From the NCBI GenBank assembly GCA_000004985.1, contig GG738862.1: 64,000 bases of DNA, one strand, 5' to 3'. Below, in pieces: positions 6,832-31,647 of the stretch. The position numbers were made by a program, and so were the translations under genes. Positions within the stretch are counted from its first letter, which is position 1. Each line of letters starts with the position of its first letter. The notes beneath the pieces were generated by a model that ran no database searches, had not been told where the DNA came from, and worked only from the letters and a program-made list of their open reading frames with translations. Source of the DNA: Naegleria gruberi. Taxonomy: Eukaryota.

Positions 6832-7186
6832 AAATATTAGTATTCTAATTAAGAAGACTCTTCTGAAGTTGATCACTAATTTAGTTTGATAGATCTTTAA
6901 TTTAACAATCAAATAGTATTTAGTCAACTCAATTACTCTTTAAGAATTTAAAATTCAACTATGAAAATTGAAAGTACATAATCATGATTACAATCCTCGT
7001 AGTTCGTAGTGTAAAACATTTTCAAGACACTTGTCTCTTTTATTCTTCAATTGTAACAACCATTAGCTATATAGAGATAGTTTCCATACCAAGGAAAAAT
7101 GACATGTTGACATTTGGTATCTTTTATAGACATTTGACCACCACATAAGCCAACAATCACGATTGCGATATCTTTCACTAAAAAAA

Positions 7187-8716: not shown

Positions 8717-9045
8717 CTTTTCCATTATTCGACTTTTCACATTATTTCCTTTTTGAGCTCATGGTCAACTGGTTCTTTTATTAACAATTATTCCATTAAG
8801 AGAACAAATTATCAGCAATCACACAATAAGAATGTTACTTTACACAACTTACAATATCCACTAGAATCGGAATTAGAATCTTTTATTTATGCGATTCTTA
8901 TTTGAGCCAGCAAATCATTTTGGAATCTTTCACTTTACGAACTCTATTTTACCTTTTTAGATGTTTTTGGAATGTTAAACTACTATTTTCAATTTGCAAT
9001 ATTGACATCCATGAATCTTTCACACAGTCAATTAAACACAAAAAA

Positions 9046-10527: not shown

Positions 10528-10744
10528 TAAACATGATCGATTCGTAGACCGTATTACAATCAACATGTTGTTAGTTGTAGGAAATAGAGACTCCATTTTC
10601 CGACTCAAAGTTTACAACAAACAACAAATTTCAGAGGTGGACATTGATGGACATTGAAGGACTTTGATAATTGTTTTAAAAGTGTGAAATGAGTGGATTC
10701 TTTTCAAGGAGTTTTAAAGAAAAAACAAACAACACTTCACACAA

Positions 10745-12181: not shown

Positions 12182-12276
12182 AATATTTAATTTGTTAATT
12201 GACTATATTTAATCAGCTAATCTTCTACAGGACTAAAATGGACTCTAATAGAGAGAATCATCCTACATTTTTTTGA

Positions 12277-13264
12277 TTGGATTGTTCAACTTCAAATGTC
12301 ATTTGTCCTGTCTCTTTACAAAACAAAAAATTTAGTTCTCTCGTGTTGAGTGGCAAATTCAACCACCATCAAACACAACAAACAAAAAAAAATAACAACA
12401 AAATGCCCATCAAAACAAACAACAATCAAAACAAACAAGACAAGATAGAGAAAAAAACTGCCAAATGTCCAGTTTGTTTATTCAACAATTTAACATGTCA
12501 CCATGCTGATAATATTAAATACAAGATATCCAACACTCCCTTCATCGGATGTTATAATAGAATATATATATTATGTATACAGATATGACTATCTACCAAT
12601 ACCTCCACAACAACAATTTTCCTATGATAATTTAATTTATGAACAAATAAGTAAATTTGCTGACATGTTAAATTATAATGAAAATTATTCTGATAAGGCC
12701 TATAGAGGAATGTTGTTGGAATATTTTTATAAACCTCTTCATACATATGCGAAGGGAGAAGGTTGGATAGATGAGAGTGCAACACTTTCAATCAAAGAGG
12801 AAACGAATAAGAATACTAAAGAAGGAAATGTCTTGAGTGATGATGATAGTGTAGATTTGGGAGCTAATTTACAAGATGAACAACATCTTCCCTCATCTAT
12901 TCAACTAAATTATGGGAATACATCCTGCCTATTTAAACCTAAAAAGATTACAAAAAAGTCAAAACGCAAGCAAAAAGCTCCATCAACAACAAATATTCCA
13001 CCAATTAAGAGAACTGCCATAATTAGTAATAGAGCAAATAATGAATCTAGAATGATGTATTTAGAAGAGAAGGATCTCAATAGCACAGAAACATTATTAA
13101 CTGCTATAAGAAATAATTTAGAAATCACTCGTTTAAATAATTTACAATTTAAACATAAGAATATTTATGTTACTGTTAAGGAGAATGAAGTTTCAATAAT
13201 TAAAGATCTAATGAAGGAGAATGATGATACTTTGAAATTTTGTTATGGAACTAAAGCTCAATAA
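12277..13264 (+). CDS. Hypothetical protein formed by two overlapping ORFs (probably joined by a small intron). The N-terminus has a CPVC...CHH zinc-knuckle-like segment.
   Basis: ORFs 12277..12588 and 12503..13264 are in different frames. No recognisable domain. Confidence 0.25.
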
Positions 13265-14316
13265 TAATAATAAATATCAAATCATTATTTTAGGAATACA
13301 CATTATCAACAATCCAATAAGAGCTCCACATTCACAACTTGTTCCTCCTTACAATAATCAAAAAAAAACAAATAAAAAAAAAACAAATAATGACTGAAAA
13401 TCTATTACGTGCTATAGTGTTGCTTCCAACACATAATTATAGTGATGAAGAATTAAAGGAACAACTCGGTTCTCTTGCAAATTTATTAGCTGCTGTTCCA
13501 TTTGAGGAAATGAAAGATAAAGAATCTAATAGTGTATCTCTATTGACATTGTTGGTAAAGTTATTGAACTTCCATTTCGTTTGGCTGGAATGTGATTGAC
13601 AGAAGGAAATTTGTGAAGTTTGTATTTCAGTGAGTGGTAAGGCAAATGAAAGCAACTTAATTACTTCTTCCAGAAAATCTTCAAACACCTGCCAATACTA
13701 GAATGATGAAACCAGCTAAAAAACAAGTTTCATCCAAAGAATGGATTATTGACTGATAACACCATTCAGGAAGGTGTTACAAAATTCAAAACTCAATTAT
13801 ATGATGCAGTAGATCTCACTAAGGAAACAGCAAAGAATATGCTCATCCTTACCAGAAACATGTCTCACAAATAAGGAGGTTATCAATATTAGTTGTATAA
13901 TAATTTATTATAAAACAACAATGCAATTTGTAAATAAAAATGATTAATCAATCTTCTTCATCAGCATCACCTCCAATAATACAAACATCTTCATCATCGA
14001 CAAGTAGCCATCATCATTATCAACATGAAAATATTCCTCGAGTAGCCTCTTCTTCATCATCATGTGATTTAAATAGAATGAATAGTTCGGAGAGTAATTT
14101 AGATGATATTCTCTCTTCATCACTATCATCAACAGGTTCTATTAAGGAACATCGTTCAATGAGACAATCTTTATCTATTCAACAACAACAATATTATAAT
14201 CAATCATCTGATTATACTTCTAATTCATTATTATTTGAGCCTAAAACTTTATTCTTTCCATGTATGTAATATTTAAATTCATCAATCATTATACAACAAT
14301 TTAATTAATTTAATTC

Positions 14317-14712
14317 ATGAACAACAATATAATAGTACCTAACAAGTATAAAACAAAATTTAGTCTCTATCTATTTAATGATAGTTCAACTGATTTCATA
14401 GCCTTCACTATTAAGAATCCAAATACAAAATATTTTGAAATTTCATCCGAAGCCTATTTTCCATCACTGAATAGTAATTCATCATCATCGTCATCATCTT
14501 CATGTTCATGTAATAATAATTGTTATGGATGTAGTAATAGTCTATTATCAAGTCAAGTTATATTTCCAAAATCTCAAATAGTATTAAATATTACATTACA
14601 TTGTAATCAAGTATTAACAAATGATGATAATTTAATATTTGAATTTAATTATAAAAAATCAGAAGATCCACATGATTTAATTAGAAAAACTGTATGTTTT
14701 AATTTTATTTAA
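14317..14712 (+). CDS. Hypothetical small protein with a possible MSP/PapD-like beta-sandwich
   Basis: The pattern FSLYLFNDSSTDFIAFTIKNPNTKYFEISSEAYFP...SQIVLNITL resembles the MSP domain. This is weak. Confidence 0.2.
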   Translation: MNNNIIVPNKYKTKFSLYLFNDSSTDFIAFTIKNPNTKYFEISSEAYFPSLNSNSSSSSSSSCSCNNNCYGCSNSLLSSQVIFPKSQIVLNITLHCNQVLTNDDNLIFEFNYKKSEDPHDLIRKTVCFNFI

Positions 14713-14822
14713 TTATTTAATTTTATTTAATTTTACTATAATTTAATTATTTTTTATATAATTATTTATTTAATTATTTAATTAATTAAAAGAATATACC
14801 AAAAATAACATTTACACATAAA

Positions 14823-16585
14823 ATGGAAGTTAAATTTTCATATCCATCAGATGATAATATAAATGTAAAATTTGGAGATAATATATTATTATTAACACCT
14901 AAAAAATTAAATTTTCATTCCCTAATTAGACCTGATCTTTCCATAAATGTAAAATATAGTACTTTACAAAATTATAAAAAATTATATTCATTAAATGAAT
15001 TATATTTAAATCATTTAATGAATATAATAGAAAAAGATGAAATTCAAGAAGAAATTCAAAGTTATTATTGTCCATCATGTTTAACTGAATTTGCTAAAAG
15101 TGAAGCAATGTTTAACAAGATGAAATGTCAATTTTGTTTTTCATGTCCATCATGTCAATGTAATTTAAATTTAGTTACAAGAAATTTACAAACATTTTTA
15201 TCATGTCCATATTGTTATTATGATACTTTGGATATTAATTTAAAAACAAATGATTCATTTAATCAATTATTTGAAATTGTAAAGGAAAATGATAATAGAT
15301 TACAATCAGATTTTAATTTACAATTAAGAAAATATGCTGATCATGTTAAAAAATTAAATTCAAATTCAAATTCAAATCAACAATATAGAAAATTTTCAAT
15401 AGTTTTAGATTCTTATGTAACTGTGACTACTAATAGTAATTCATCATCTAATAATAGTAATAATAATAGAATTGGTAATAGTAATACTTCTAATTATGGA
15501 AATGGAATTGAACCATTAACTCATTCATCAAATGAAAGTTTAGATTCCTATTTAAAAAAAAGTGATCAAAGAGTTCAATACATGACATCAAGTGAATATT
15601 CATATAATAATTTAATATCATTTGAAAGTAAATTACAAAATAATAATAATAATACATTTAATTCTAATAATTCTAATAATAATAATAATGACATTTCAAT
15701 GTTGTATCCACAGAGAAAAACACTTTGTATTAAAAAGATTAAAAAATATGGAGAGGAAATTATTGTTAAAAGAGATTCAAAAAATCATTCAACTAATTTT
15801 GATATTAATTATAATGCAATGTATGTTTTTTAATTTTTTAATTTTAATTTTAATATTTTTAAAGTAAATTTTTACCTAAATTTTCAATACTTAATGTACC
15901 AGTATTAAATGTAAATAGAGAATCAGATATATATTTATTAATTACAAATCCAAATGAGGAATGTAGATTATATTTAAATTTAGAATCATTTGATAATAAT
16001 GTTAAATTAAATTTACCTAAAAAGACAATAGTATTAAAAGAAAATAATGGATTAGAATCATATTCAGCTGATGTTCAACAATTAGGAATTGAAGATGAAA
16101 AATTGAGGGAATTAGATCATGAAATTGAACACATAATTGAAAGGAGAAATAATCAATTAAAAATTAGAATTGGAGTTTTACCATTTGAATCCAATGTTAA
16201 ATTTAAAATAAGAGTTAAATTGAGTGGACTATCTTTGAGTGCTGCATTTTCATCTTCTCCAAATTCTGTTACATCACCTAATAATAATTCAAGTTCTGCT
16301 ATCACTAATTCAAATAGTAATATCAATAACAATAGTAATAATAACTCATCAACAAATGCTACTAATAATAATGGATTGACTGTTTCATCAAGTTTAACAA
16401 ATTCAATGATGGAATCAATAGCACTAAACTCACCCAAAAAGAAGGAAATGTATGAAAAACAAGAAAACAAACAAGTGGAATATCTTGTACATTTTCAACT
16501 TCCAAGTGCTGTTTATACTGAAGATGATTTGAATGAGCACCAAGAAAGTTCTACACCAAAAGTTGACTGGATTAAAGTTTATTGA
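14823..16585 (+). CDS. DCTN4: Dynactin subunit 4 (p62), two exons: 14823..15820 and 15865..16585, separated by a 44-nt intron
   Basis: YYCPSCLTEFAKSEAMFNKMKCQFCFSCPSCQCNLNLVTRN matches the p62 Cys-rich motif (YCPSCLE..AEA..KK.RC..CF.CP.C...L.TRA). The intron GTATGTTTTTTAATTTTTTAATTTTAATTTTAATATTTTTAAAG restores continuity INYNA|IKFLPKFSILNVPVLNVNRESDIYLLITNPNEE, which resembles the human segment [33 protein letters not shown]. Confidence 0.6.
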
Positions 16586-16734
16586 GTTGTGCTTATCAAT
16601 AAATTTCTTAAAGTTCTTAATTTTATAAGAATAATTTTATTAATGGTTAGTTACAATGGAGTAGAATAATTACGAATAACAAATTGTTCTTCTTCTTGCT
16701 AATTATCCCAATTGTTGAGTTGGTCCAAGTGTTA

Positions 16735-19698
16735 TTAGACATTTTCTTGATTAACTCCTCTTCCATTATTATCTGTGTTATTATCACCAGCAATTGGACC
16801 ATCATTGGATAATGTAGTACTATTATTAGTTGTATCATTACCAATTCCATATTGTCTTCTCAATGCATCCAAATCAAAAGGTAAAGTTAATTGAATTTGT
16901 AAATTTGGTCTCTTTGCATTTTCTCTTCTCAATTTTTCTAATTCTTCTTCATCAATAATCCACATTTCATCATCATCATAACGTTGACCAAAACATAATA
17001 AATTTGATTTGATAAAATCTAAAGCCTTCATAAAATTATTACCATATTTTGAATTATTAAAATTATTTAAAAATCTACGTTTAGATTCAACCTGTTCAAC
17101 ACGTGCAGTACCAGTTGTTGTATCAAATGGAAGTGGAATTTCCTTAGTTGCTCTATAATTTTCTATATTTGCAATATTTTCATGTTCAATACGGAAAATA
17201 TTCCAAATAAATCTTCTTAAAATTTCCAAAAATACAAACAAGTATAAAATCCATTCCAATGTTTCCTTTTCAATTTTAACAAATGATTTAACAAATAAAA
17301 ATGGTAACCAAACCCATCTTAGTATAATATTACTAAACATGGCCATATAATAATATTGAGGTGAAAATATTAATTTAGATCTTAATCCCCAATATTTAGT
17401 TTTCTTTTCAAATAAACCCATATCAACACGTAAATCCCAATATAATTTTAAACATGTTGAAATAATATTTATAATAATATATATAATACGTAATATTGTA
17501 AATGATCCAATTAATATATTATTAGAATTATCCAATGTTAATTTATCAATAAATGCAATAATAATGACTAAACATGATGAAAAATATTTTAATGCATTTA
17601 ATAAATGCATTTTTTGTCTAGTATCATAATATTTTCTTAAACATTGCATTAATCTAACATGATATGGAATGTAATTTAAAATTGGAATTCCTAAACTTTT
17701 AGTTGAAGAACAAAATAAAGAAATTGTTGAAAATTTTGAAGTTGCAGGATAAATACAACCAATAAATTGTAATTCAAATAAAACATCAGATAAAGAAGTT
17801 AATTGATCTGCAATAAAAAAGTCAGAAAATCTAACTACTGTAAAAGGAGATGCTAACATTCTTAAAATACATTTTAATAACCAATATCTAAATTCAAAAT
17901 TTAAAATTTTAAAAGGATTAATTAAATATAAAATAAAAATAATCCATAATATAATTGGATGCCAATATGCATATTGTCCTATTAATAGAATATTACTTAA
18001 ATAGGAAATTACATTCATCATGTAAATTAATTGACTTGTAAAAATTATATTTAAAATTAATAATGAAATTGATAAAAATTTCCAAGTTGATAAACACATT
18101 AATGGATTTAATCCTAATATGTAAATATAATTAATATTATATTTACTCCAAATTCTAATATTTATACTTATAAAAAATGTTAATAATGTTGGAAATAATA
18201 ATAATCTATATAAAGAAAAACTTTGATCATCATATTCTATATTTTCCTTATTTGTAAATTCATATGTATAAAAATAATAAAATAAATTTATAATTATTAA
18301 TATAAATAAACTTCCTAATAAAATACCACTTGTAAATATATCTTTTAAATTATTTACTTCTAAAATACCAATATCTCCTATTTTTAATTTACTTAATTGT
18401 TCACTTGCTAATTTTATATCATTTTCACAATAATATTCTGCATAATAATAAATTGTATCTTTAATATGTTTATCAATTAAATTAGAATTTTTAAAATATT
18501 GATATTTTATAAATTTTATATTTTCAAATATTTCTGTAAAATTAATATTTCCATATATAGTATCATAATAATTATTATATTATTATTATTTAGAATTATT
18601 ATTATTATTAGAATTATTATTAAAATTATTATTAATAATAATAGGAGTATTAATTGAATTATTTTTAGAATTATAATTAATTGCATCATTTAATTCATTA
18701 AAAGTAAATTTAATTTTTCTTTTTGTAATTTCATTTAATTTTGTTGTAATATGAATTAAAGCATTATAATTAACTAATCTATAATTAAATAATAAATTTA
18801 AATTATAATAATGTTCTTCAATTCCTTCTTTTAATTTTTGTTTTTGATTAAATGTTAAAATTTCTAATTTTGATGATTTACTATCTTTAGAAATTAATGA
18901 TCTTGCATATTTATTATCATTATACATTTCATTAATTTTATTAATTTGTTCTAATAATCTATTATGTTCATCATTAATAGAAATTTCATTTTCTAAATAA
19001 AAATTATTAATCTTATTAATTTCCTTATATAGTAAATATTTAAAATCTTCAATTAAATTATTATTTATATCATTATTATTATTATTATTTCTTCTATTTG
19101 TTAAATTAATAGATGAAGATATAATATTTTTAATATTAAAATCAGAATGTTTAAATTCATCTTTTAAATCATTTAATTTATCAAGTAAATATTTATAATC
19201 TAAATATTTAACTTGCCATTCTGTTACCATATTTGCATAAAATTGTTGTTGTAATGTTTTTTCATCATATGAAGATGATATTATTATAGATTCAGATGAT
19301 TCACTACTACTACTACTATCATCTGATTCTACACTTTCAATACTATTTCTATTTTCATTATCTTCATTAGATCTCAATAATATATTATTAGTATTATTAT
19401 TGCTGTTATTATTATTATTAATAGATTTAAAAGAGTGATGATGATGATGACGGTGATGATCACCATATTCTATTGGATCATCAATATATTTATGATGATG
19501 ATCTAATAATTCTAATTCATCTTCTTGATTTAATGGAATATCTTCTTCTATACGTTCATCATCATCATTAATTGTTGAGGAATGTATCATCATCATTGGT
19601 GGAGGAGGTGTTGAAAAACTTCCTACCCCACTACCAATGGGTGATGAAAATGATGACAAGTTTGGTGGAGTCTTGTTAATTATACTTGTTCTTCTCAT
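16735..19698 (-). CDS. SPX-EXS family protein (XPR1/SYG1/PHO1-like phosphate exporter homologue). It has a His-run N-terminal extension. There is at least one intron, with acceptor ttttacag at about 18535.
   Basis: EXS signatures are VVRFSDFFIADQLTS and RRFIWNIFRIEHENIANIENYRATKEIPLPFD. The SPX start-like segment is FYANMVTEWQVKYLDYKYLLDKL (compare PEWRKQYINYEEMK). The frame is open on the minus strand from 16735 to about 18534 without an ATG. The upstream exon 18586..19698 ends in a stop, so the exact splice is unresolved. Confidence 0.55.
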
Positions 19699-19772
19699 AT
19701 TGTAAATACACTTGTTGTTGTTGTTCTATGAGTAGTTTCAATAGGTATTAGATGATAATAATATGATGCTAT

Positions 19773-22133
19773 TTGGATATAGAAATGGATGAATTTATAG
19801 TAAATACAGTTACAGATACTATTGAAAATGTAATAGTATCATTTAAATGTAAAAGTTATTGGTTTATTTCATTTGATGGTGTTGCAACTAAATCTAAAAG
19901 ACTTTTACAAAGAGATAATAGAGCTAAAACTTCACGTAAATCAAATAAACAGTTATTTAATAATAATAATAATAATATAGATGATAATAATAATATAGAT
20001 GATAATATAGATGATAATAATATAGATGATGAACAAGTTGATAAAGAAGATCTCATTGAAGATAAAGAAGATTTCATTGAACAAGATGATAATAATATTA
20101 TTATTATTGAAAAAGAACAAGATGAATTAAATGATGATGAACAAGATGAAAATCCAAAAAAAAGAAAATTAAATGATGATATCAATGAAGAGAATGATAA
20201 TAATATTAATAATAATAATACTACTCCTATAACAAATATATCTAATAATAATACAAATACTAATAATAATAATATAAATAATAATAATAATATAAATATA
20301 GATAATGTAGAATGTAAAAGATCATTAAGTGTAGAAATATCACCTGGTACAAATTTAAGTAAATTAATGTATGAATCAATAACTAAATTAACATACCAAA
20401 TATGTAAAAAATTAAAAATAGATATATATGTATCATCTACTAATAGATCAGGTGAAGGTGAAACTAAAATAATTGAACATTTAAGACAATATTCTAAAAA
20501 TAATACATTACCTAAATCAGTATTAATTATATCACAAGATTCAGATATGATTTTAATACCATTAATTAATTCAGATATTAATTGTTCTTTTTATATTTTA
20601 ATACCAAATTCAATACAACATTTTAAATCTGGTAATTTTATTGATGTTACAAGTTTTAAATTATTTTTATATAATTTTATTTCTAAAAATAAATTTAAAA
20701 AAATAGATAATTCTAATATAAATAGTAATTATTCTATAAATAATTATAAAAATATTCATCAATTATGTTTAGATTTTGTTAGTATTACATTATTAGCAGG
20801 TGGATGTGATTATTTTAGATATTTTCAAAAAGGATTTATAAGAAATTGGAGAAATTATTTTAAATTAATTGAAAATTCATCTAATTTTAATATTTTTGAA
20901 TTAAATATTTTAAATAATTCAGAAATTGAATTTACAATTAATTGTAATAATTTTATATCTGTATTTGGAAGTAGAGTACCATATACACAAATGGAAATGA
21001 AAAGTGATCCAAATAATGCAATTTTATTTTTTAAACAATTATGTGCATGTATTTTACAATTTAAAGGAATAATTCCAATTATGGAATATTTTAATAATCA
21101 TTTAAAAATGATTGATGTTTTACATTTATTTTCTTTAAATAATAATTTTTATGAACAAGTTGAATTTACAAATAATAATAATATTACTAAATTTAGAAAA
21201 GTAATTACAAAAACATTTAAAGATAAAATTAAAATTTTAACAACAATTGAAGAATTAACAGATAAAACAAATTTAACTCCACTTGAAGGTTTAATTTCAA
21301 TGATTAATAATTTAAATTATCATGCATTACCAAATCAAAATTTAATTGAAATTTTTAAACATGAAGAATTATCTTTTATTTTAAATATAAATACAAAAAT
21401 GGAAAAAAAATATTGGACTTTAAATGATCCTTATTTAAAAATTAGAAATTTTATTAATGAATGGAAAATTAAATATTCAAATATTAATGATAATGAAATT
21501 AATAATATTAATACTGGTACTTTATATTTAAAATATAATGATTATAATAATATATTGACTTTTATGGAAGGTAATAGACCATTTATGGAATTTAATAATA
21601 TTGATTTAAATTTAAATTTAAATAATAATTATCATAAATATTTAAATATTTCAAATATAATTACTGCTCCTTCTATTGATCAAATTAATTTATTAAAATT
21701 ATTTGATGAAACTGATCCACATAAAAATTTAACTAAATTAGTTTATAAAAGACAAAGACGTCCTAATAATAATAATAGAAATAGAAATAATAGAAATAAT
21801 AATAATAGAAATAGAAATTATGATAGAAATGATAATTATGATAGAAATAGAAATGATAATAATAGAAGTAGAAATTATGATAGAAATTATGATAGAAATG
21901 ATAATAGAAATACTACTATTGAAGATAAGAATAATGATAAAAGTAGTTATGATAATAGAAGAGATGATAGAGATAATAATTATAGAAATTATGATAGAAA
22001 TTATGATAGAAATAGAAGTTATAATGATAATAGAAATGATAATAGAAATTATAATAATAATAATTATAAAAGAAGAGATAATAGAGGAAATACTTTTTAT
22101 AATGAAAGAAAAGATAATGATAGAAATAAATAA
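19773..22133 (+). CDS. XRN-family 5'-3' exoribonuclease homologue (divergent). It lacks the canonical extreme N-terminus and has an N/D-rich insert and a C-terminal RN(Y)D repeat tail.
   Basis: [27 protein letters not shown] compares with XRN1 [48 protein letters not shown] compares with [37 protein letters not shown]...[14 protein letters not shown] compares with PGEGEHKIMEFIR...LYGLDADLIMLGL. Confidence 0.55.
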   Translation: [786 protein letters not shown]

Positions 22134-22401
22134 TTATTAAATATGGAGGTAAAGCAATTTATTTAATAAATTTTATCTAAAAATTCTTTGATTAAAGGAT
22201 TTGGAGAATAAAACACAAGTTTCATGATATCAAATTGGTTTAGCATTACAATTTGCACCTACAATACCATTGTTGTTGATTTAGCAATTAGATCAGACAA
22301 TATTCACTACTTGTGAAATGATAATAATTAAATTAAAATTAAATATACTTAAATATAAATATAATTAAATATAAAAATTTCAATTAAATATAAAAATCAT
22401 C

Positions 22402-23774
22402 TCAATTAAATAATTCATAAATAGGTCTAAATGATTTTTGTTGAATAACTTGTGGTATTTCTAATAAACCTCTCAATGCTTTTAAAATATCAATACCTAA
22501 TAAAACACCTAACATTCCAGCTAAATCTCCTAATAATTGTAACATTGTTTTACCTGCAATTTCACTAACTTGATGAATATTTAAAGTAGAATAAGCAAAT
22601 GAAACAACAACAATTGAATCTTCTTTAAAAGTTAATTGTACATTTGAAATACGTGAATCCCAATGTATTGAATGTAATGGATATTCTTCAGTTGATTTTA
22701 ATCTATTAGTTTCAATTTTAGTTAAAGTAAAGAAATTATCAACGTATGGTATTGCAAAATTAGTTTCAGCAAAAACTAGTGGAATTGAACCAATTTCATG
22801 AAATGATGCTTGTAATCCAAATCTTGAATCTCTATCAGATTTTACAGGTGGTAATGTAAAATACATTGAAATACTACCACCATATCCTGTTGTTTTAACT
22901 GCTAATGGTTTACTTGTATCATTATTAAATACATAACATTGAAATACTTGTCCATTTTGTTCAATTACTGTTTCACTTAATTTAAATGGACATTCATATA
23001 TTGTACCATCTGTATCATTCACCATTGTACATGTTTTTAATGTTAAATTACAATAATCACAATAATATTCTGCATTCCAATTACATATTGTTACTATTTA
23101 ATTATATTATTATATTTTAATTATATTATTATATTTTTAAATTATTATGTATTTATATTATTAATTATTTTAATATTTTAATATTAATTATTATATTTTA
23201 ATAATAAAAATAACATACCAGCAGGATAATTTAAAGGTACTTGTTCAATATAAGAAATAGAAGTGGATGGATTTGTTTGTGCATCTAAATAACCATTTAT
23301 AGAAGAATATAAATAAAATAAATAAACACCAATACATATTAACCATCCAATTGATGTTATAATTTCAGATATTCTTACACCTGTTCTTATTTGTAAACAA
23401 TCTGCATGATCATTTTGTGATTCTAAATCATCTCCATCTCCATCTTCATATTTATGTATATTTTTAACTCTAGGTGTTAATACTTTTGAAAGTGTATCTA
23501 ATGTTGTTGAGTGATGTTGTTGATGTTGTATTTCCTTATTAAATGATTGATTATTATTTGTATTTTTCATTAAATTATTATTTTGTTGTTGTTGAGATTC
23601 AGGATAATCAATACAACAATTATTATCCATTTCAACTTGTATCGGAGGTTGTGGTTCAAAATCATCTAATGTTGGAAGCCTACTTGATGCTACATGTGAT
23701 GTTTGAGCCTTATATCCATCTTGATTTGTTGTTGTTGTAGATGTTACTGAGGTATTAAGATTATTATTCTTCAT
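22402..23774 (-). CDS. DEG/ENaC/ASIC-family cation channel homologue with two exons, 23219..23774 and 22402..23093. The 125-nt intron 23094..23218 starts GTATGT and ends AATAG.
   Basis: Exon 1 has a long N-rich N-terminus, TM1 ITSIGWLICIGVYLFYLY, then ...NYPA|. The splice creates YPAVTICNWN (compare the conserved post-TM1 FPAVT(I/L)C). A Cys-rich ectodomain follows. C-terminal TM2 LLGDLAGMLGVLLGIDILKALRGLLE aligns with ASIC [26 protein letters not shown]. Confidence 0.6.
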
Positions 23775-25353
23775 TTATTGTTGATGTTAATGTTGGATGT
23801 AGTAGTTGTTGTATATATATATTAATTGATTATTTCATGAATTGGATGTTGTGTTGTTTTTTTCATTTTATGAAATATACAGGTTTTGGCGCCATGCAAC
23901 TACAAGTTCACGGTTTAGCTAATTTTGGGTTGTTTAACTGCGCACCTGTTTGAGGGAATCAAGGCTAACTGTAGAAATATATCTAGAACTGGTTGATCAT
24001 CCTTTGAATTCATTTTACATCTCCAATAATTCAAAATAATAACCTTCTTTCCAAGCAATTATTTAATACATCATCAATTACAACAAATGAGTCAGTTATG
24101 GAAATATTATCATTTATTGTGGAAGCAAAGTTAAACAAAACTCAATCACAAAGTTTGATTTAAATCAACTTCACAAGTTATTACCTCCTTGTAATCTTCC
24201 AAATCATACTTCAAGAGTTTACTTTTGTGAAGAATCAGTTTCAAAACATTCTCAAACAATTTGTGAAATATTTGATATTAACAAATTCTAGACCCCTAGA
24301 AAGACATGAAAAGGAAGTAATTTCAGATTTATTGTGCCTTGACAATGAATATTAGATTCGTACTAACAGAAGATTCAAGCTAGGACAACTCCAGTATTTG
24401 GACATGAGCCGAATAATTTAACAGATTGAAATAATGAAAGTTGCTTCAAGCTAACACCAAGGTGAAAAGTCCTTTGTTTAAAATTGATATTATTACTTAT
24501 AATAAGTTGATACAACTATATTGTTACCATTATCTGGTGTCATGTTTGGGACGGTATAAGAGGATGTCCAAAACTAAAATACACTTTAAAACTAGAAGGC
24601 TGCAGATTACAATAGGTTTACATGCATTTTGCGCTGAATGTTTGACAGGCGATAAAATAAGTAGATGATATCTAGATACACATTATACTGTTGTATTTCA
24701 ACATACATATACATACATTCAACAACTGTTGATTACCGTACAATCTAGTGATAATTACAAGTATCAACTAGGATAAACACTACCGCGACATAGATACCAT
24801 GTACTTCACAAGAAAATGATTTATCACTGAATATTGGTGCCGTAAGCGAGTGTATGCATATTTAGTGTATGTCCAACTTAGAGTGTATCTTATATAACAT
24901 ACTATATCTAATACAGTTATGGTATTGGAATAGCCATTCTTCTCGGGTTGACAATATTAGCTCAAGGTTTACTCTAGGGTGCACCAAAATTAAGTTTTCA
25001 GGATATGAGATGTTTGCTTTGAACTACTAGTACAAAACAACCCTATCAGTTGTTTTACTCTCTAGTTTGGAATACTTGTATTACAGGAATCTTCGAAGAG
25101 TATTTGGCAATTTTTTGTTATATATACTATTTCTTGTATTCAGAGAACCTGCCACTAACGAATTCTTGTCAATTAATAACCACAATATTTCAATCACTTC
25201 TTTTCACCTACGACCACAAAGGAAGATTGGTTAATAGCATTCTCTAGAAACATTTCTTGTGGTCAGCTTGTGTCGTTCTTTGCCAAAGAAGGTTACATCA
25301 ATTCCTAAATTGCGCTATTAGGATAAATTCCATTCTGAAAAGTTTTAAAAAAC

Positions 25354-27918
25354 ATGTCATTACACGATGATCAATTATCCTCCTCTATTACAACTCCCCA
25401 ACAAGATGATGATATTAATAATAAAGATATTGTTGATGAATTGAATAAATATGATATTAATAATAATAATATATTTGGTTATAATAAACAAATAAATAAA
25501 AAACAAATTATATATGGATGTGGTGATGGATTTTGGAAGAAACAAACCGATATAATATCAATTACTAAATTAACAAATTTTGATAAAATAGATTATTTAC
25601 AAAATTATATATTAAATGATAAAATAATTAAATTTAAATGTAAAGATCAATTATGTATATTTCTTACTAGTAATGGAAATGTATATAAAATGGGACAATG
25701 TACATTTATAAATAATTGTACAAATATTCCAACATTAATTAATAATTTTAAAAATGATAAAATTATTGATTTTTCNNNNNNNNNNNNNNNNNNNNNNNNN
25801 NNNNNNNNNNNNNNNNNNNNNNNNNNNNNNNNNNNNNNNNNNNNNNNNNNNNNNNNNNNNNNNNNNNNNNNNNNNNNNNNNNNNNNNNNNNNNNNNNNNN
25901 NNNNNNNNNNNNNNNNNNNNNNNNNNNNNNNNNNNNNNNNNNNNNNNNNNNNNNNNNNNNNNNNNNNNNNNNNNNNNNNNNNNNNNNNNNNNNNNNNNNN
26001 NNNNNNNNNNNNNNNNNNNNNNNNNNCTTTTATAGAATATAAAAAAAATGGTAAATATCAAGTTGACTATTTTTATACTTTAAATTTTACAAATATTACT
26101 AAAATAGTAAAAGAATGTAATAAAAATAAAAATATATTTATTAATAATAATAAAATACAAGATATTAAAGATATTCAATGTAATGGTATTAATACTATAA
26201 TTATTTATAATGATAATACAAATATATTATCTCCTTTATTTAATGATTATTATAATCCAATTAAAAATGAAATTATTTTAAATAAAGTTTATAATAATTT
26301 TATTTTTGAAAATGTATATCAAAAATTAATTTTAAATGAATATCAAATTTTATATTTAAATAATAATAATGAATGTAAATTTATTGATTATAATGGTAAT
26401 TTATTTAAAATGGATAATATTATAAATATGGAAAGTGGTACATTTCATAGTTTTTTACAAACTATTGATAATAAATTTTATTCATTTGGATCTAATGAAT
26501 TTGGTGAATTAGGATATAATAAGAAATTTAATGAATTAAAACAAGTTGAATTACCATTTACTATTAAGGAAGGTGATAATGTTCAAATTTGTTGTGGTAA
26601 AAATTTTACTATTTTAATACATGAAACAGATAATGATGAAATATTTAAAATTAATAATTTAATTGTAACTGATAATTTTAATTTTAATTATGAAATTAAT
26701 TCAAATTTTTATTTAAATTTAAATTTATTAAAAAATATTTCCAATGATTTTTATAATTTAATTACAAATAATAATATAATTGAATATTTAAATGAAAATG
26801 ATCAAAAAGCATTATATTATTTAATTAAAAATGCATTAATTAATTTAAATAATTTAACTAATTTAGATGAATTATTTATTAATTATGATAAATTTATAAA
26901 ATTAATTTCCTTTAATGAAATTGAATTAAATTTAGTAACATGTCTATTTATATTAAATGATATAAATGATATTAATAATGAAATTAAATTATTATTATTT
27001 AATGATCTATCAAATAGAATTAATATTGATAATATTATGAATATTTTACAAAAAGTTAATAATTATCTTTCTTTAAATATTTTAAAACAATCTAAAAATA
27101 GTATTTTATTATTATTAGCAAATAAATGTTTAGCATTTATTAAAGAAAATGAAAAATTATTAAAATCAGAAAAATTATTTGAAATTATTAAAGATAAATT
27201 ATTAAATATTAAAAAATCATTTAAACAAATTATTTATAAAATTGATAATATTACTACTATAAATGGAATTGATAATAATATTAAAAATATAAATGAATCA
27301 TTAAAATTATTATATAATAATAATGAAAATAATGATATTAAAATTATAATTGATGAAAATTCAAATGAAATATTATATTTACATAAAAGTATATTATCTA
27401 TTCATAGTCCAGTTTTAAATATTTTATTTAAAAATTTAAATATTAATGAAATTAATTTATATGAATTTATTGAAATGATGATATCAGATGAATGGATAAT
27501 TAATTTATTTAAATATTCAAATAAAATTAATGAAATATTAAAAATAATATTTAAATTATGTTATGGATATAAATTAAATAATTTAAATTTAAATAATTTA
27601 ATTGGTATTTTAATTATTTCACAACAATTAGATATTACATGGTTAATTAAATATACATGTAATTTAATTATTGAAAAATTTAATGAAATTAATGATACTG
27701 AATTTATTTTATTACTAAATTTAGTATCAATTTCACAAAATAATAATAATTGTAAAGAATTTGTTGAATATTTTAAAATATTTTGTTCAAATAATTTATC
27801 ATTTGATTATTTACAAAAAATACAATCAGTTTGTAAAGATAATCAATCATGTGATAATTTTATTAAAATTATTATTGATTATTATTTAAGAGTACATACT
27901 ATAAATAGAAAATATTAA
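25354..27918 (+). CDS. RCC1-repeat plus BTB/POZ-domain protein (RCBTB-like), extremely AT-rich. The CDS is interrupted by an assembly gap.
   Basis: YSFGSNEFGELGYNKK and GCGDGFW are RCC1-blade-like. ILYLHKSILSIHSPVLNILFKN is the BTB core. The N run inside the ORF is read as X. Confidence 0.4.
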   Translation: MSLHDDQLSSSITTPQQDDDINNKDIVDELNKYDINNNNIFGYNKQINKKQIIYGCGDGFWKKQTDIISITKLTNFDKIDYLQNYILNDKIIKFKCKDQLCIFLTSNGNVYKMGQCTFINNCTNIPTLINNFKNDKIIDFXXXXXXXXXXXXXXXXXXXXXXXXXXXXXXXXXXXXXXXXXXXXXXXXXXXXXXXXXXXXXXXXXXXXXXXXXXXXXXXXXXXXXFIEYKKNGKYQVDYFYTLNFTNITKIVKECNKNKNIFINNNKIQDIKDIQCNGINTIIIYNDNTNILSPLFNDYYNPIKNEIILNKVYNNFIFENVYQKLILNEYQILYLNNNNECKFIDYNGNLFKMDNIINMESGTFHSFLQTIDNKFYSFGSNEFGELGYNKKFNELKQVELPFTIKEGDNVQICCGKNFTILIHETDNDEIFKINNLIVTDNFNFNYEINSNFYLNLNLLKNISNDFYNLITNNNIIEYLNENDQKALYYLIKNALINLNNLTNLDELFINYDKFIKLISFNEIELNLVTCLFILNDINDINNEIKLLLFNDLSNRINIDNIMNILQKVNNYLSLNILKQSKNSILLLLANKCLAFIKENEKLLKSEKLFEIIKDKLLNIKKSFKQIIYKIDNITTINGIDNNIKNINESLKLLYNNNENNDIKIIIDENSNEILYLHKSILSIHSPVLNILFKNLNINEINLYEFIEMMISDEWIINLFKYSNKINEILKIIFKLCYGYKLNNLNLNNLIGILIISQQLDITWLIKYTCNLIIEKFNEINDTEFILLLNLVSISQNNNNCKEFVEYFKIFCSNNLSFDYLQKIQSVCKDNQSCDNFIKIIIDYYLRVHTINRKY
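25777..26026. other. Assembly gap (run of about 250 N) inside the RCC1/BTB gene
   Basis: Contiguous n characters. The frame continuity across the gap is an artefact of the placeholder length. Confidence 0.95.
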
Positions 27919-28746
27919 ATTTGATTACCAATCAGATTTATTAGAATTATTTAGTTATTTATTTTTTATTAGAAATTTATATATTGTGTAATGAAATAAA
28001 ATTATGTTGTGTATTTAAAATTCATAAATTATTTTATTACATCTCGGCAGCCATGAAGAATTGAAATTGTATTATATTGAAGATTCATCAATAATATGGA
28101 ATGATGATGATCCATAGTAAATCATATGGATGACATTCAGTAGTGAATCTTGTGACTTGTCATTATATTATCCAATAAATTTAGATATAAATAATCCCTG
28201 AAATGAACTAATTACAATATCGCCAATAATAGATCAATCCCTTCCAAAAAGAATACATTCAATAGGTGATTGTTATCCATTGTATTATAAGTAAACACTT
28301 TCAATCAATGTATTCTTCACCTCAATGAACCACATATCACCTCAGAGACTAGTAAGTTATCCAATTGATCTGGTTATTGTAATAATAATAGTTGTATTAA
28401 TGTGTATATATTGACATTTGTGGATGTAGGTAATTGAGGTAATAGTTTCGCCACAACCTTACTCAAGACCTAATAAAACAACAATCAATTGTAATATTTT
28501 CAATGACAAATTCATCATTCCATATCAATTATGAACAATTCTGCATCTTTTTACAATAGGTGGTCTTTATTAAAACCAAAATAGGACCTAACAAGATTTC
28601 CCAATTGGTATCGTCAGTGCTCAAAATGGATTCCAGCACAAATATTCGCTATTTTCTTCAACTACAAAGGGACATTTTTTATGATTCAATTTAAAAAAAA
28701 ATACAACAATAATAACTGCAAAGATTTCATTTAATAATAACAAAAA

Positions 28747-31647
28747 ATGTCATCCAATCCAAGTAAATTTTGTTACTTTTTTGGTATTGATCCAAAAAGT
28801 GGTCAAAATTTAACAGAAGGTAATCGTAATATGAAAGATTTATTAGGTGGTAAAGGAGCTAATTTAAGTGAAATGTGTAATTTAGGTGTTCCTGTTCCAC
28901 CTGGTTTTACAATTTCAACTGAAGCCAATGTTTTATTTAACAAACATAATAATTATGCTTCTAATATTGAATTGGAAGGTGAAACTAAAGTTACTAAAGA
29001 TCAACTTCCACAACAAATTATTGATGAAGTTAATCAATATTTAACTAAATTAGAACAAGTTGCTGCTAAGAAATTTGGTTCTCTTCAACAAGAAGGTGAT
29101 AGAGTTTTACTAGTTTCTGTTAGAAGGTTTGTTTTTCATCATTCCGATCATTTAATTTTATATTACTTTTTTAATACAATGATTGTATCATACTCACAAT
29201 CAACACTCATCCATACAATCCATACCCAATCCAATATATAATAATATAATATAATAATATAATAATATAAAAAAAACAGTGGTGCAGCAGCATCAATGCC
29301 AGGTATGATGGATACAATTTTAAATTTAGGATTGTGTGATGATAATTTACAATTAATGATTTCCAATTTTGGTGGTAATGAAAGATTTGTATGGGATTCA
29401 TATCGTAATTTAATTCAAATGTTTGGTGATGTAGTGATGGGAGTCAAGTATGAAAAATTTGAAGAAAATATTCAAAAACAAAAAAAGAAGAGAGGTATTT
29501 CATTAGATATTGATTTAACATTGGAAGAAATTAAAGAAATTGTTCAAGATCATAAAGAAACAATTAGAGAAATGACAGGTGAAGAATTTCCACAAGATAC
29601 AAGACAACAAATGTTTAAAGCAATAATAGCAGTATTTCAATCATGGTCAAATAAGAGAGCAATTCATTATAGAAGAATTCATAATATTAGAGGATTGAAA
29701 GGTACAGCTGTTAATATTCAAACAATGGTATTTGGTAATATTGATAAGAGATCATGTTCAGGTGTTTCATTTTCTAGAAATCCATCAACTGGTGAAAATA
29801 AGTTTTATGGTGAATATTTAACACAAGCACAAGGTGAAGATGTTGTTTCAGGTGTTAGAACTCCTGAAAAGATTGAAAATTTATCAATTGAATTTCCACA
29901 ATGTTATAATGAATTAATTAATATTTCACACAAATTAGAAAAACATTATAAGGATATTCAAGATATGGAATTTACAATTGAAATGAATCAATTATACATG
30001 TTACAATGTAGAAATGGTAAAAAATCAGCTGCTGCTGCATTACAAATTTATTGTGACATGTTAGATGAAAATTTAATTACAGAACAAGAATCAATTTTAA
30101 AAATTGATGCATCACAATTAGATCAATTACTTCATAAATATTTAACAGATGAAGAAATTCAAAAACATGAACCATTAGCAAGAGGATTAGCAGCATCACC
30201 TGGTGTTGCAGTTGGTAGAATTGCCTTTACATCTGAACAAGCAATTGAAATGGCAAAAGAAAGAAAAATCAGAGGTGATGTTATTTTAGTGAGAACTGAA
30301 ACTTCACCTGAAGATTTAGCTGGTATGCAAATGTCACAAGGTTTTTTTACAACAAATGGTGGTATTACTAGTCATGCAGCAGTTGTTGCTAGACAGAATG
30401 GTAAATGTTGTGTTAGTGGTTGTTCTGCATTAATTGTAAATGAACATGAAAAGACTTGTACAATTAATGGTATTGATTTTAAAGAGGGTGATATTATTAC
30501 AATTTCAGGTTCAACTGGTTTAGTTTTTAATGGTGCATTGAAAATGAGTGAACCAACAGTTACAGGTGGTAATTTTGGTAGAATTATGGAAATTGAAAAA
30601 AAGTATCGTACAATGGGAGTTTATGCTAATGCAGATACAACATCAGATGCAAAGAGAGCATTAGAATTTGGTGCTGAAGGTATTGGTTTATGTAGAACTG
30701 AACACATGTTCTTTGAAAAGACTCGTATTATGGATATGAGAAGAATGATTTGTGCTACATGTGATGAAAAGAGACAAGATGCAATTACAAAATTGAAACA
30801 ATATCAAAAACAAGATTTTATTGGTTTATTTAATGTAATGGGTGATAGAAAAGTTACTATTCGTTTATTAGATCCACCACTTCATGAATTTTTACCACAT
30901 GAAGAACATGAAATTGAAGAATTAGCTAATTTATTGAATGAAGATATTCATATTATTAAGAGAAGAATTGAAGAATTAACTGAAAAGAATCCAATGTTAG
31001 GTCATCGTGGTTGTAGATTAGGTATTACTTTACCTAAAATTACACAAATGCAAGCAGAAGCAATATTTGAAGCTGCAATTGAAAGTGAAAGTGAAATTGT
31101 TCATGTTGAAATTATGATTCCATTAATTTCATCCATTCAAGAATTGAGACATCAAAAGGAAATTATTGATCGTATTGCACAACGTATTATTTCATCCTCA
31201 TCTTCTCTATCCAATAAGGTTAAATATAGAGTTGGATGTATGATTGAAACACCACGTGCTGCTTTATTAGCAGATGAAATTGCATCCATTTCAGATTTCT
31301 TTAGTGTTGGATCAAATGATTTAACACAAATGACATTTGGTTTTTCAAGAGATGATGCTGAAAAATTCTTAAAAGATTATATTGAAATGGAATTGACTCA
31401 AAATGATCCATTCCAAATATTAGATAATGAAGGTGTTGGTCAATTAATTAAAATGGCAGTACAAAAAGGTAGAAGTGTTAAACCTGAATTAACAGTTGGT
31501 TTATGTGGTGAACATGGTGGTGAAATGAATTCTGTTCAATTCCTTCATACTTGTGGTTTAACTTATGTTAGTTGTTCACCTTTTAGAATTCCAATTGCTA
31601 GAATTGCTGCATGTCAACAATCTATTTTATCTGCTCAAAAGAAGTAA
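28747..31647 (+). CDS. PPDK: Pyruvate, phosphate dikinase, two exons: 28747..29126 and 29280..31647, separated by a 153-nt AT-rich intron
   Basis: N-terminal [21 protein letters not shown]. Splicing restores LLVSVR|[19 protein letters not shown] (consensus [17 protein letters not shown]). The catalytic-His region [22 protein letters not shown] is present. The C-terminal PEP-utilising domain [10 protein letters not shown]...CRLGI is present. The donor is GTTTGT and the acceptor is ACAG. Confidence 0.9.

What the first reader, a model, noticed from the sequence alone, without database searches (positions are those of the whole stretch)
19773..22133. Truncated, possibly catalytically inactive XRN-family paralogue with an RNYD-repeat tail
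Three XRN N-domain blocks are conserved, including GEGE and D.D (DSD for DAD). The canonical first approximately 60 aa (MGVPKFFRW...LYLDMNGIIH, carrying two catalytic Asp) are absent. The protein is only 786 aa, carries a poly-N/D insert, and ends in about 100 aa of RN(Y)D(R)N repeats (21760-22130), which looks like an RNA-binding low-complexity tail. It might be a pseudo-nuclease or regulatory partner (compare the yeast Rat1-Rai1 system), or an upstream exon may be missing.
Basis: partly seen in the sequence, partly recalled or inferred. Interest (0 to 1): 0.5.

Follow-up and report, generated by a model that had tools for sequence, protein, structure and literature searches.

The report
5'-truncated divergent XRN nuclease gene in Naegleria
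The ORF is a real gene of the amoeba Naegleria gruberi, for which no N. gruberi protein record could be retrieved: it is the local copy of a very divergent XRN-type RNA exonuclease found only in Naegleria and Willaertia, and in this assembly it lacks the first ~136 codons, including one catalytic aspartate, that all its relatives keep.

Summary
ORF 19773-22133 (first ATG 19785) matches Pfam XRN_N (E 1e-14) only over profile positions 64-233. It has GEGE, DSD, an N/D-rich insert and a 127-aa R/N/D/Y tail.

The window is Naegleria gruberi, not Dictyostelium. The ORF is the syntenic orthologue of N. fowleri XP_044568006, of an N. lovaniensis gene and of Willaertia magna genes. These form a long-branch XRN-like clade. 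All of them begin MG[VI]P.F and carry I-D-x-N-x-x-[IL]-H. The N. gruberi copy starts exactly after that segment.

No upstream exon exists. The divergent SPX-EXS gene starts 86 nt away, the next + strand gene upstream is dynactin p62, and motif, tblastn and HMM scans of all six frames of the 64 kb found nothing.

Six of the seven XRN acidic residues are kept. Asp35, His41, helix alpha1 and core strand S1 are missing. The copy has evolved no faster than the intact N. fowleri orthologue (47 vs 53 unique changes). An old pseudo-nuclease is therefore unlikely.

The likeliest reading is a recent 0.5-0.7 kb 5' deletion. An assembly defect cannot be excluded. Interest is modest.

The parts
19785..22133 (+). 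XRN-like ORF from the first ATG to the TAA stop (782 aa; the frame is open from 19767, and the ORF list starts it at TTG 19773)
   Evidence: Pfam XRN_N E 9.7e-15; BLASTP to N. fowleri P0001 3e-52 and 2e-46
19785..19943 (+). CR1 block A: a helix, then strand S2 with the Asp86 equivalent (D35, 19875-19877), then the start of the tower helix with the Lys93/Gln97/Arg101 equivalents (K42, Q46, R50). Arg100 is replaced by N49
   Evidence: alignment with Xrn1/Rat1 and family members; residue list from PMC5499597; coordinates
19944..20315 (+). N/D/I/E-rich low-complexity insert containing PKKRKL (20154-20171, NLS-like). It sits at the same site as the acidic inserts of the N. fowleri, N. lovaniensis and W. 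magna proteins
20316..20702 (+). CR1 block B: [12 protein letters not shown], GEGE (E228 at 20454-20456, E230 at 20460-20462) and DSD (D256 at 20538-20540, D258 at 20544-20546)
20730..21545 (+). Family-specific C-terminal half, probably a diverged XRN CR2: GGCDYF (D346 at 20808-20810, the Asp292 equivalent), [14 protein letters not shown] (21027-21068) and [20 protein letters not shown] (21273-21332)
   Evidence: 41% identity to N. fowleri; conserved in W. magna; hhalign against XRN CR2 is weak, E 0.078, with motifs in the same order
21750..22130 (+). R/N/D/Y-rich tail (127 aa, five RNYDRN units), encoded by an imperfect AT-rich tandem array. It is not conserved in sequence with the K-rich tails of the relatives
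19699..19784 (.). 86-nt spacer between the two divergent ATGs. It stands where N. fowleri has about 580 nt of intergenic DNA plus 408 nt of N-terminal coding sequence, so it is the site of the apparent deletion
18586..19698 (-). SPX-domain ORF of the divergently transcribed SPX-EXS gene, the conserved syntenic neighbour
   Evidence: Pfam SPX; BLASTP to the N. fowleri SPX-EXS protein 8e-42; same neighbour in L001 and L002
16735..18099 (-). EXS-domain ORF of the same SPX-EXS gene
   Evidence: Pfam EXS E 1.5e-68

Best explanation
This is the Naegleria gruberi orthologue of a highly divergent XRN-family (PIN/FEN-like, two-metal) 5'-3' exoribonuclease gene so far seen only in the vahlkampfiid amoebae Naegleria and Willaertia. 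No N. gruberi protein record for it could be retrieved. It sits at a conserved position, head-to-head with the SPX-EXS gene. Full-length members (N. fowleri, N. lovaniensis, W. magna) have the N-terminal MG[VI]P.F helix, the Asp35/His41 strand, all seven acidic residues, an acidic low-complexity insert in the tower region, a diverged CR2 and a basic low-complexity tail. By inference they are nuclear, Mg2+-dependent exonucleases acting on 5'-monophosphate RNA. In the N. gruberi sequence given here, about 0.5-0.7 kb has been lost relative to the sister species. That loss removed most of the intergenic region and the first ~136 codons (helix alpha1, core strand S1 with Asp35, His41). The ORF now begins at an ATG in good context (A at -3, G at +4), exactly where homology resumes. 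A protein made from that ATG cannot assemble the complete XRN active site. The rest of the gene shows no relaxation of constraint, so the loss must be recent (strain- or allele-specific) rather than an old, settled pseudo-nuclease state. Shown: organism, orthology, synteny, absence of the segment from the window, and which residues are kept or lost. Inferred: that a deletion is the cause, its recency, the enzymatic activity and the nuclear location.
For: Organism: three window ORFs are exact N. gruberi NEG-M proteins. Orthology: BLASTP to N. fowleri P0001 gives 3e-52 and 2e-46. An exhaustive profile search of 1.84 billion representatives found only N. fowleri, N. lovaniensis and W. magna below 1e-10. 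Synteny: SPX-EXS(-) next to XRN-like(+) in L001 and L002, and tblastx is collinear, with Ng 19317 matching Nl 5523 and Ng 19776 matching Nl 6501. The N-terminus is present in all relatives. It is absent from the window by four tests: tblastn, motif scan, three-frame reading of 18.1-19.8 kb and an HMM of the segment against all six frames, best E 0.25. The next + strand gene upstream is dynactin p62. Six of the seven acidic residues are kept, plus K93, Q97 and R101 equivalents. Relative-rate test with W. magna as outgroup: 47 Ng-unique against 53 Nf-unique changes, p 0.55. The ORF is open with chance probability about 1e-42. A second, independent 5'-truncated copy exists in W. magna.
Against: No independent copy of the N. 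gruberi junction could be examined. A defect in the assembly therefore cannot be excluded. A 251-N gap lies 3.6 kb downstream in the same AT-rich island. For an inactivating deletion to leave a 786-codon ORF untouched, it must be very young, which is an uncomfortable coincidence. The ATG sitting exactly at the start of homology would also fit a selected, functional short form. There are no expression data. The AlphaFold model was too poor to use (pLDDT 43.9).
Confidence: 0.5

Rival explanations
1. The gene is intact in the organism. The missing ~0.6 kb was lost in assembly or cloning of this extremely AT-rich stretch, or the N-terminal coding segment lies elsewhere in the genome, outside the window.
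For: The rest of the gene evolves at the same rate as the intact orthologue, and all remaining catalytic residues are kept. That is exactly what an intact gene would show. The region is an AT-rich island with an assembly gap 3.6 kb away. Two divergent start codons only 86 nt apart is unusual, against ~580 nt in N. fowleri.
Against: There are no Ns and no long repeat at the junction that could collapse an assembly; the only repeat there is (GTT)4. From general knowledge of Sanger whole-genome assemblies, a consensus requires several concordant clones. No N. gruberi protein carrying the segment appeared in the exhaustive search, whose profile included that segment.
Confidence: 0.25
2. One reading: a stably maintained, N-terminally truncated XRN-like protein that no longer cleaves RNA. 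It would act as a pseudo-nuclease, for example a binder or protector of 5'-monophosphate RNA or a regulatory partner, using its retained basic pocket and R/N/D/Y tail.
For: The ORF is intact. The ATG has a good context exactly at the start of homology. The K93, Q97 and R101 equivalents are retained. W. magna also keeps an open truncated paralogue.
Against: Loss of core strand S1 should compromise the PIN-like fold itself, not only catalysis. In a long-standing non-enzyme the six metal-binding acidic residues would not all be expected to persist, and no rate acceleration is seen. There is no evidence of expression. Rai1 is unrelated to XRNs, so that analogy does not apply.
Confidence: 0.18
3. 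The clade is a giant-virus-derived XRN-like gene acquired by vahlkampfiid amoebae. The N. gruberi copy would then be a decaying viral insertion in an AT-rich island.
For: 328 giant-virus contig stretches encode relatives at about 30% identity. The best non-family hits of the exhaustive search are of the viral MGIPSYFS/GVAPFAK type, and W. magna shares GVAPFAK. Profile bit scores are higher for these (34-49) than for solved cellular XRNs (about 22).
Against: A neighbour-joining tree gives no supported link; deep nodes have under 35% bootstrap support. Identity of the N. fowleri protein to yeast Rat1 (28.5%) equals that to the viral proteins (23.5-28.6%). Synteny with cellular genes is conserved in three Naegleria species, and the N. 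fowleri locus has ordinary GC content.
Confidence: 0.05

Closest known systems
N. fowleri XP_044568006 / KAF0983293 ('Xrn1 N-terminal domain-containing protein', 1138 aa), the N. lovaniensis gene C9374_008916 and its downstream ORF, and W. magna KAL9641685 / KAL9648369
   Same: Orthologous or paralogous. They share the conserved blocks [42 protein letters not shown], IISxDSDM, [9 protein letters not shown], FFKQLxACxLQFKG and LTPLEGLxSMIxxxNxHALP. The insert site is the same, the neighbour gene (SPX-EXS) and its orientation are the same in Naegleria, and each has a basic low-complexity tail.
   Different: The window copy lacks their first ~136 residues (MGVPSF..., IDINPIIH). It is far more AT-rich (17% against ~32% GC). 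It has an R/N/D/Y tail instead of K-rich tails. No N. gruberi protein for it was retrievable from the collections.
Canonical XRN1 and XRN2/Rat1 5'-3' exoribonucleases (Pfam XRN_N PF03159 plus XRN_M PF17846; PDB 2Y35, 3PIE, 3FQD)
   Same: The PIN/FEN-like catalytic core is shared. Equivalents of Asp86, Glu176, Glu178, Asp206, Asp208 and Asp292 are present, along with Lys93, Gln97 and Arg101. The order of the CR1 and CR2 motifs is the same.
   Different: Sequence identity in the alignable blocks is only about 23-29%, and solved XRN structures match the family profile at no better than E ~2e-4. There is no XRN_M Pfam match. The motifs read DSD instead of DAD and GEGETK instead of GEGEHK. Arg100 is not conserved. 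In this copy Asp35, His41 and helix alpha1 are missing.
Variant XRN paralogues of other Discoba (trypanosomatid XRNB/XRNC, function unknown; mentioned in PMC5862402)
   Same: They are lineage-specific extra XRN paralogues that exist alongside canonical XRN1/XRN2-type enzymes in a discoban protist.
   Different: No sequence comparison could be made here, so any relationship is untested.
Short XRN-like proteins of giant viruses (Nucleocytoviricota MAGs, ~510-655 aa, starting MGIPSYFS...)
   Same: Compact XRN core. DSD is frequent in place of DAD. GVAPFAK is shared with W. magna. They are the highest-scoring non-family matches.
   Different: No phylogenetic support for a specific link. The viral proteins keep GEGEHK and a canonical NDFLP/CR2.

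Membership tests
XRN 5'-3' exoribonuclease family (XRN1/XRN2) | Significant match to the Pfam XRN_N profile above its gathering score | tested here: met
   55.1 bits against a cut-off of 22.9, E 9.7e-15, but covering only profile positions 64-233 of 241
XRN 5'-3' exoribonuclease family (XRN1/XRN2) | All seven conserved acidic metal-binding residues (XRN1 D35, D86, E176, E178, D206, D208, D292; PMC5499597 Table 2) | tested here: not met
   Six are present (ORF D35, E228, E230, D256, D258, D346). The Asp35 equivalent is absent together with the whole N-terminal segment
XRN 5'-3' exoribonuclease family (XRN1/XRN2) | N-terminal MG[IV]P.F alpha1 helix and the stacking His41 | tested here: not met
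   Absent from the ORF and from all six frames of the window. Present in N. fowleri, N. lovaniensis and W. magna. Functional importance of the helix: PMC9512700
XRN 5'-3' exoribonuclease family (XRN1/XRN2) | Basic 5'-phosphate pocket (K93, Q97, R100, R101) | tested here: inconclusive
   K42, Q46 and R50 align with K93, Q97 and R101. The R100 position is N49
XRN 5'-3' exoribonuclease family (XRN1/XRN2) | Second conserved region CR2 / XRN_M helical domain | tested here: inconclusive
   No Pfam XRN_M match. hhalign of the family C-terminal half against XRN CR2 gives E 0.078, with GCDYF, KQLxACxLQFKG and TPLEGLxSMIxxxNxHALP in the order of NDFLP, YLEGLxWVxxYY and QLxxVLPxxSxxLLP. Foldseek of a low-confidence model puts Rat1 and Xrn1 first but at E > 0.1
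XRN 5'-3' exoribonuclease family (XRN1/XRN2) | Processive 5'-3' hydrolysis of 5'-monophosphate RNA | not testable with these tools
   Needs a biochemical assay
Vahlkampfiid divergent XRN-like clade (N. fowleri XP_044568006 and relatives) | High similarity over both the CR1 and C-terminal blocks | tested here: met
   BLASTP 3e-52 and 2e-46. The Naegleria trio has 100% bootstrap support, and 62% with Willaertia added
Vahlkampfiid divergent XRN-like clade (N. fowleri XP_044568006 and relatives) | Conserved genomic position head-to-head with SPX-EXS (Naegleria) | tested here: met
Vahlkampfiid divergent XRN-like clade (N. fowleri XP_044568006 and relatives) | N-terminal MG[VI]P.F ... [IF]ID[IA]N..[IL]H segment | tested here: not met
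Pseudogene | Disrupted reading frame or accelerated, unconstrained evolution | tested here: not met
   786 codons are open at 17% GC (P about 1e-42). Relative-rate test 47 against 53, p 0.55. Only the 5' end and promoter region are lost
Giant-virus XRN-like genes (horizontal origin) | Supported phylogenetic nesting within or beside the viral clade | tested here: inconclusive
   In the neighbour-joining tree the deep nodes have under 35% bootstrap support, and identity to viral and cellular XRNs is equal

The most novel reading that the evidence does not exclude
N. gruberi really expresses the short form from ATG 19785. This would be an XRN-core protein that lacks strand S1, Asp35, His41 and the ratchet helix but keeps the 5'-phosphate pocket residues and carries an R/N/D/Y-rich tail. 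It would work as a natural pseudo-nuclease, binding, protecting or sequestering 5'-monophosphate RNA or acting as a dominant-negative. Alternatively it could be one half of a split XRN whose N-terminal piece is encoded elsewhere and supplied in trans.
Probability: 0.15. Interest if true: 0.6.

Novelty: new member of a known kind. Interest (0 to 1): 0.3.

Why it matters
The practical results are four. The organism assignment is corrected to Naegleria gruberi. A 2.3-kb gene is reported for which no N. gruberi protein record could be found. A small, uncharacterised, lineage-restricted XRN-like clade is defined in Naegleria and Willaertia; it includes the pathogen N. fowleri and has no close counterpart in the other organisms searched. 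The N. gruberi copy is flagged as 5'-truncated or mis-assembled.

If the short form proved to be expressed, it would be a rare natural XRN pseudo-enzyme and a useful probe of what helix alpha1 and strand S1 contribute. If it is a recent deletion or an assembly defect, it is an annotation and assembly note. Nothing here touches a long-standing open question.

Tried and rejected
1. Dictyostelium origin, suggested by composition, was rejected by exact protein matches to N. gruberi.

2. An upstream spliced exon was sought in five ways. These were tblastn with yeast Rat1/Xrn1 and N. fowleri N-termini, a regex scan of six frames, reading of three frames over 18.1-19.8 kb, ORFs and Pfam further upstream, which gave dynactin p62, and HMMs of the segment against 2,937 six-frame fragments. 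Nothing was found.

3. The word-indexed homology searches were swamped by low complexity or otherwise patchy. One search returned one hit, one search returned none, and one search missed known members. The exhaustive search was what defined the family.

4. An independent copy of the junction was sought without success. A 97%-identical metagenome strain exists but only its P450 contig was retrievable. Both JGI metagenome scans were empty.

5. Structure prediction gave an AlphaFold2 model with mean pLDDT 43.9. Foldseek ranked Rat1 and Xrn1 first but not significantly, so the model is unusable.

6. The giant-virus origin idea was tested with a neighbour-joining tree and 200 bootstraps. No support was found.

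7. A profile-profile test of CR2 homology was only suggestive.

8. A literature search found no description of this Naegleria clade. A survey of mRNA-decay genes lists two N. gruberi Xrn1 homologues with accession numbers outside the range seen for this window's proteins.
Full report
**What is in the sequence.**
The ORF exists as described. It runs 19773..22133 on the + strand and is 786 codons long. The first ATG is at 19785, an in-frame TGA lies at 19764, and the stop TAA is at 22131-22133. Pfam XRN_N matches at 55.1 bits (cut-off 22.9), E 9.7e-15. Only residues 6-269 align, and only to profile positions 64-233 of 241.

- [10 protein letters not shown]
- GEGE (20451-20462)
- DSD (20538-20546)
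- an N/D/I/E-rich insert (19944-20315)
- a 127-residue tail (21750-22130) that is N 36%, R 24%, D 16%, Y 9%, with five RNYDRN units

The tail is encoded by an imperfect tandem array. At 17% GC, a 786-codon open frame has a chance probability of about 1e-42. Overlapping antisense and off-frame 'ORFs' are by-products of the repeats.

**Whose genome this is.**
The composition suggested Dictyostelium. However, three other ORFs of the window are exact matches to Naegleria gruberi NEG-M proteins EFC45573, EFC45576 and EFC45586, on a 502-kb scaffold.

The XRN-like ORF itself is not in the 15-billion-protein collection under either start. No N. gruberi protein appeared in an exhaustive profile search of 1.84 billion representatives. 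A published survey lists two N. gruberi Xrn1 homologues with accession numbers outside the range seen for this window's proteins. The gene is therefore an additional paralogue and, as far as I can see, unannotated. One caveat applies: the look-up tools do not serve the source genome, so a differently modelled entry could be hidden.

**The family.**
The exhaustive search found only four proteins below 1e-10:
- N. fowleri XP_044568006 (1138 aa)
- an N. lovaniensis N-terminal model (277 aa)
- two Willaertia magna proteins (a longer 1,056-aa form, KAL9641685, sits in the cluster of one of them)

BLASTP to the N. fowleri protein gives 3e-52 and 2e-46 over two blocks. Several stretches are identical, including [45 protein letters not shown] and LTPLEGL.

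The position is conserved. In N. fowleri (L001) and N. lovaniensis (L002) the gene lies head-to-head with an SPX-EXS gene, as in the window. tblastx is collinear across the junction.

Solved XRN structures match the family profile only at E ~2e-4. This is a long-branch, vahlkampfiid-restricted XRN-like clade.

The C-terminal half has no Pfam match. Its motifs are GCDYF, KQLxACxLQFKG and TPLEGLxSMIxxxNxHALP. They occur in the same order as NDFLP, YLEGLxWVxxYY and QLxxVLPxxSxxLLP of XRN CR2, but profile-profile support is weak (E 0.078). I infer a diverged CR2; I have not shown it.

**The truncation.**
Every relative begins MG[VI]P.F and carries [IF]-I-D-[IA]-N-x-x-[IL]-H. These are the XRN alpha1 helix and the strand bearing Asp35 and His41. 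The N. gruberi ORF aligns from its residue 4-6 to N. fowleri residue 137-139, so about 136 residues are missing.

They are not supplied by an upstream exon:
- The ATG of the divergent SPX gene is at 19698, leaving 86 nt.
- The N. fowleri gene is a single exon (3,417 nt for 1,138 codons plus stop).
- The + strand of 18.1-19.8 kb has no suitable frame.
- The next + strand gene upstream is dynactin p62.
- tblastn, a motif scan and two HMMs of the segment against all six frames of the 64 kb found only noise, best E 0.25.

Between the last SPX homology and the first XRN homology, the window is about 520-660 nt shorter than the sister species. That is roughly the size of the missing coding segment plus promoter.

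**Catalytic residues.**
The seven acidic residues of XRN1 are D35, D86, E176, E178, D206, D208 and D292. Lys93 in the tower helix and a basic four-residue pocket recognise the 5' phosphate (PMC5499597). The alpha1 helix is functionally important (PMC9512700).

- D86 as ORF D35
- E176 and E178 as E228 and E230
- D206 and D208 as D256 and D258
- D292 as D346
- K93, Q97 and R101 as K42, Q46 and R50, with R100 replaced by N49

It lacks D35, H41, alpha1 and core strand S1. Active-site residues sit at the ends of the five core strands of the PIN-like sheet. Losing S1 should damage the fold as well as the metal site. That last step is inference.

**Old or new?**
With W. magna as outgroup, N. gruberi has 47 lineage-specific changes and N. 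fowleri has 53, over 551 aligned columns (p 0.55). The frame is intact and all remaining catalytic residues are kept.

This argues against an old pseudogene. It also argues against a long-established non-catalytic role. It fits three other scenarios:
- a very recent loss
- an intact gene whose 5' end is missing from the assembly
- less well, a selected short form

The junction has no Ns and only a (GTT)4 repeat, which makes an assembly collapse less likely. However, a 251-N gap lies 3.6 kb away in the same AT-rich island, and I could not obtain any independent copy of the junction. W. magna carries an independent open paralogue with only the C-terminal half, so truncated copies do arise in this family.

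**Mechanism, with odds.**
I take full-length members to be nuclear, Mg2+-dependent 5'-3' exoribonucleases acting on 5'-monophosphate RNA. A PKKRKL or KKRKLN motif is present in all three Naegleria proteins. Each has a disordered basic tail: K-rich in N. fowleri, N. lovaniensis and W. magna, and R/N/D/Y in N. gruberi, built from AT-rich codons. That tail probably provides non-specific RNA or nucleolar affinity. All of this is inferred from homology.

For the N. gruberi copy my estimates are:
- recent genuine 5' deletion leaving an inactive or unexpressed remnant: about 0.5
- assembly defect, or segment encoded elsewhere: about 0.25
- stably used pseudo-nuclease: about 0.18
- viral-origin story: about 0.05

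On the last point, giant-virus XRN-like proteins are the best non-family hits. A bootstrapped neighbour-joining tree gives no supported link, and identity to Rat1 equals identity to the viral proteins.

**Verdict.**
It is a new member of a known kind and, as far as I can see, unannotated. It belongs to an uncharacterised lineage-specific subclade and has a 5' truncation that needs checking against reads. Interest is modest.

Noticed in passing
window 14000-28000: A strongly AT-rich island. GC is 12-25%, with 26-28 kb at 12% and the XRN-like ORF at 17%. The rest of the window is 28-37% and the orthologous N. fowleri locus is 30-37%. Genes inside it are full of poly-N/I/K runs, which made the window look like Dictyostelium.
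   Followed up: partly
window 25776-26026: An assembly gap of 251 N lies inside an 854-codon RCC1/BTB-domain ORF (25354-27918). This shows the assembly is imperfect in this AT-rich region.
   Followed up: partly
window 16735-19698 (-): The SPX-EXS gene is a single 1143-aa exon in N. fowleri. Here it is two ORFs separated by 486 nt of 13.6% GC (18100-18585), which could be an intron or a decayed low-complexity linker. The SPX ORF also runs ~80 codons further 5' than the N. fowleri start, and MMMIHSS at residues 34-40 resembles the N. fowleri start MIHFYHHS. The true start may therefore be near 19599.
   Followed up: partly
L083 10001-10942 (Willaertia magna JBEGDK010000167.1): A 313-aa open paralogue (KAL9641688) contains only the C-terminal, CR2-like half of the family. 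It is 81% identical to residues 394-617 of KAL9641685. No CR1 coding sequence is detectable anywhere in the 21-kb locus, including the 10 kb upstream of the gene. This is an independent 5'-truncated copy.
   Followed up: partly
L082 (ENA ERZ929261 contig k127_350338) vs window 10116-13292: A metagenome contig is 97.4% identical to the window around the P450 gene. A second N. gruberi-group strain therefore exists in public data and could settle whether the truncation is strain-specific.
   Followed up: partly
window 8284-8661 and 10116-10495: A local duplication: window 8284-8661 is ~88% identical to the first 380 nt of the metagenome contig L082, which otherwise matches window 10116 onward upstream of the P450 gene. 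It probably reflects tandem paralogous ORFs at 7163-8716 and 8902-10527, which have no Pfam match.
   Followed up: no
L002 5986-9436 (N. lovaniensis PYSW02000036.1): The N. lovaniensis orthologue is broken into three overlapping or adjacent ORFs (5986-6303, 6312-6935, 6932-9436) and annotated as two proteins. This looks like frameshift errors in the assembly rather than biology.
   Followed up: partly
window 20154-20171: A PKKRKL (SV40-type NLS-like) motif lies inside the acidic insert. N. fowleri and N. lovaniensis carry KKRKLNQL near their C-termini instead, so the same short motif sits at a different place.
   Followed up: no
window 29296-31647 and 22402-23774 (-): The neighbouring genes include a pyruvate phosphate dikinase and an amiloride-sensitive-channel (ASC)-like gene. 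Downstream synteny differs from N. fowleri, where a PARP gene follows the XRN-like gene.
   Followed up: no
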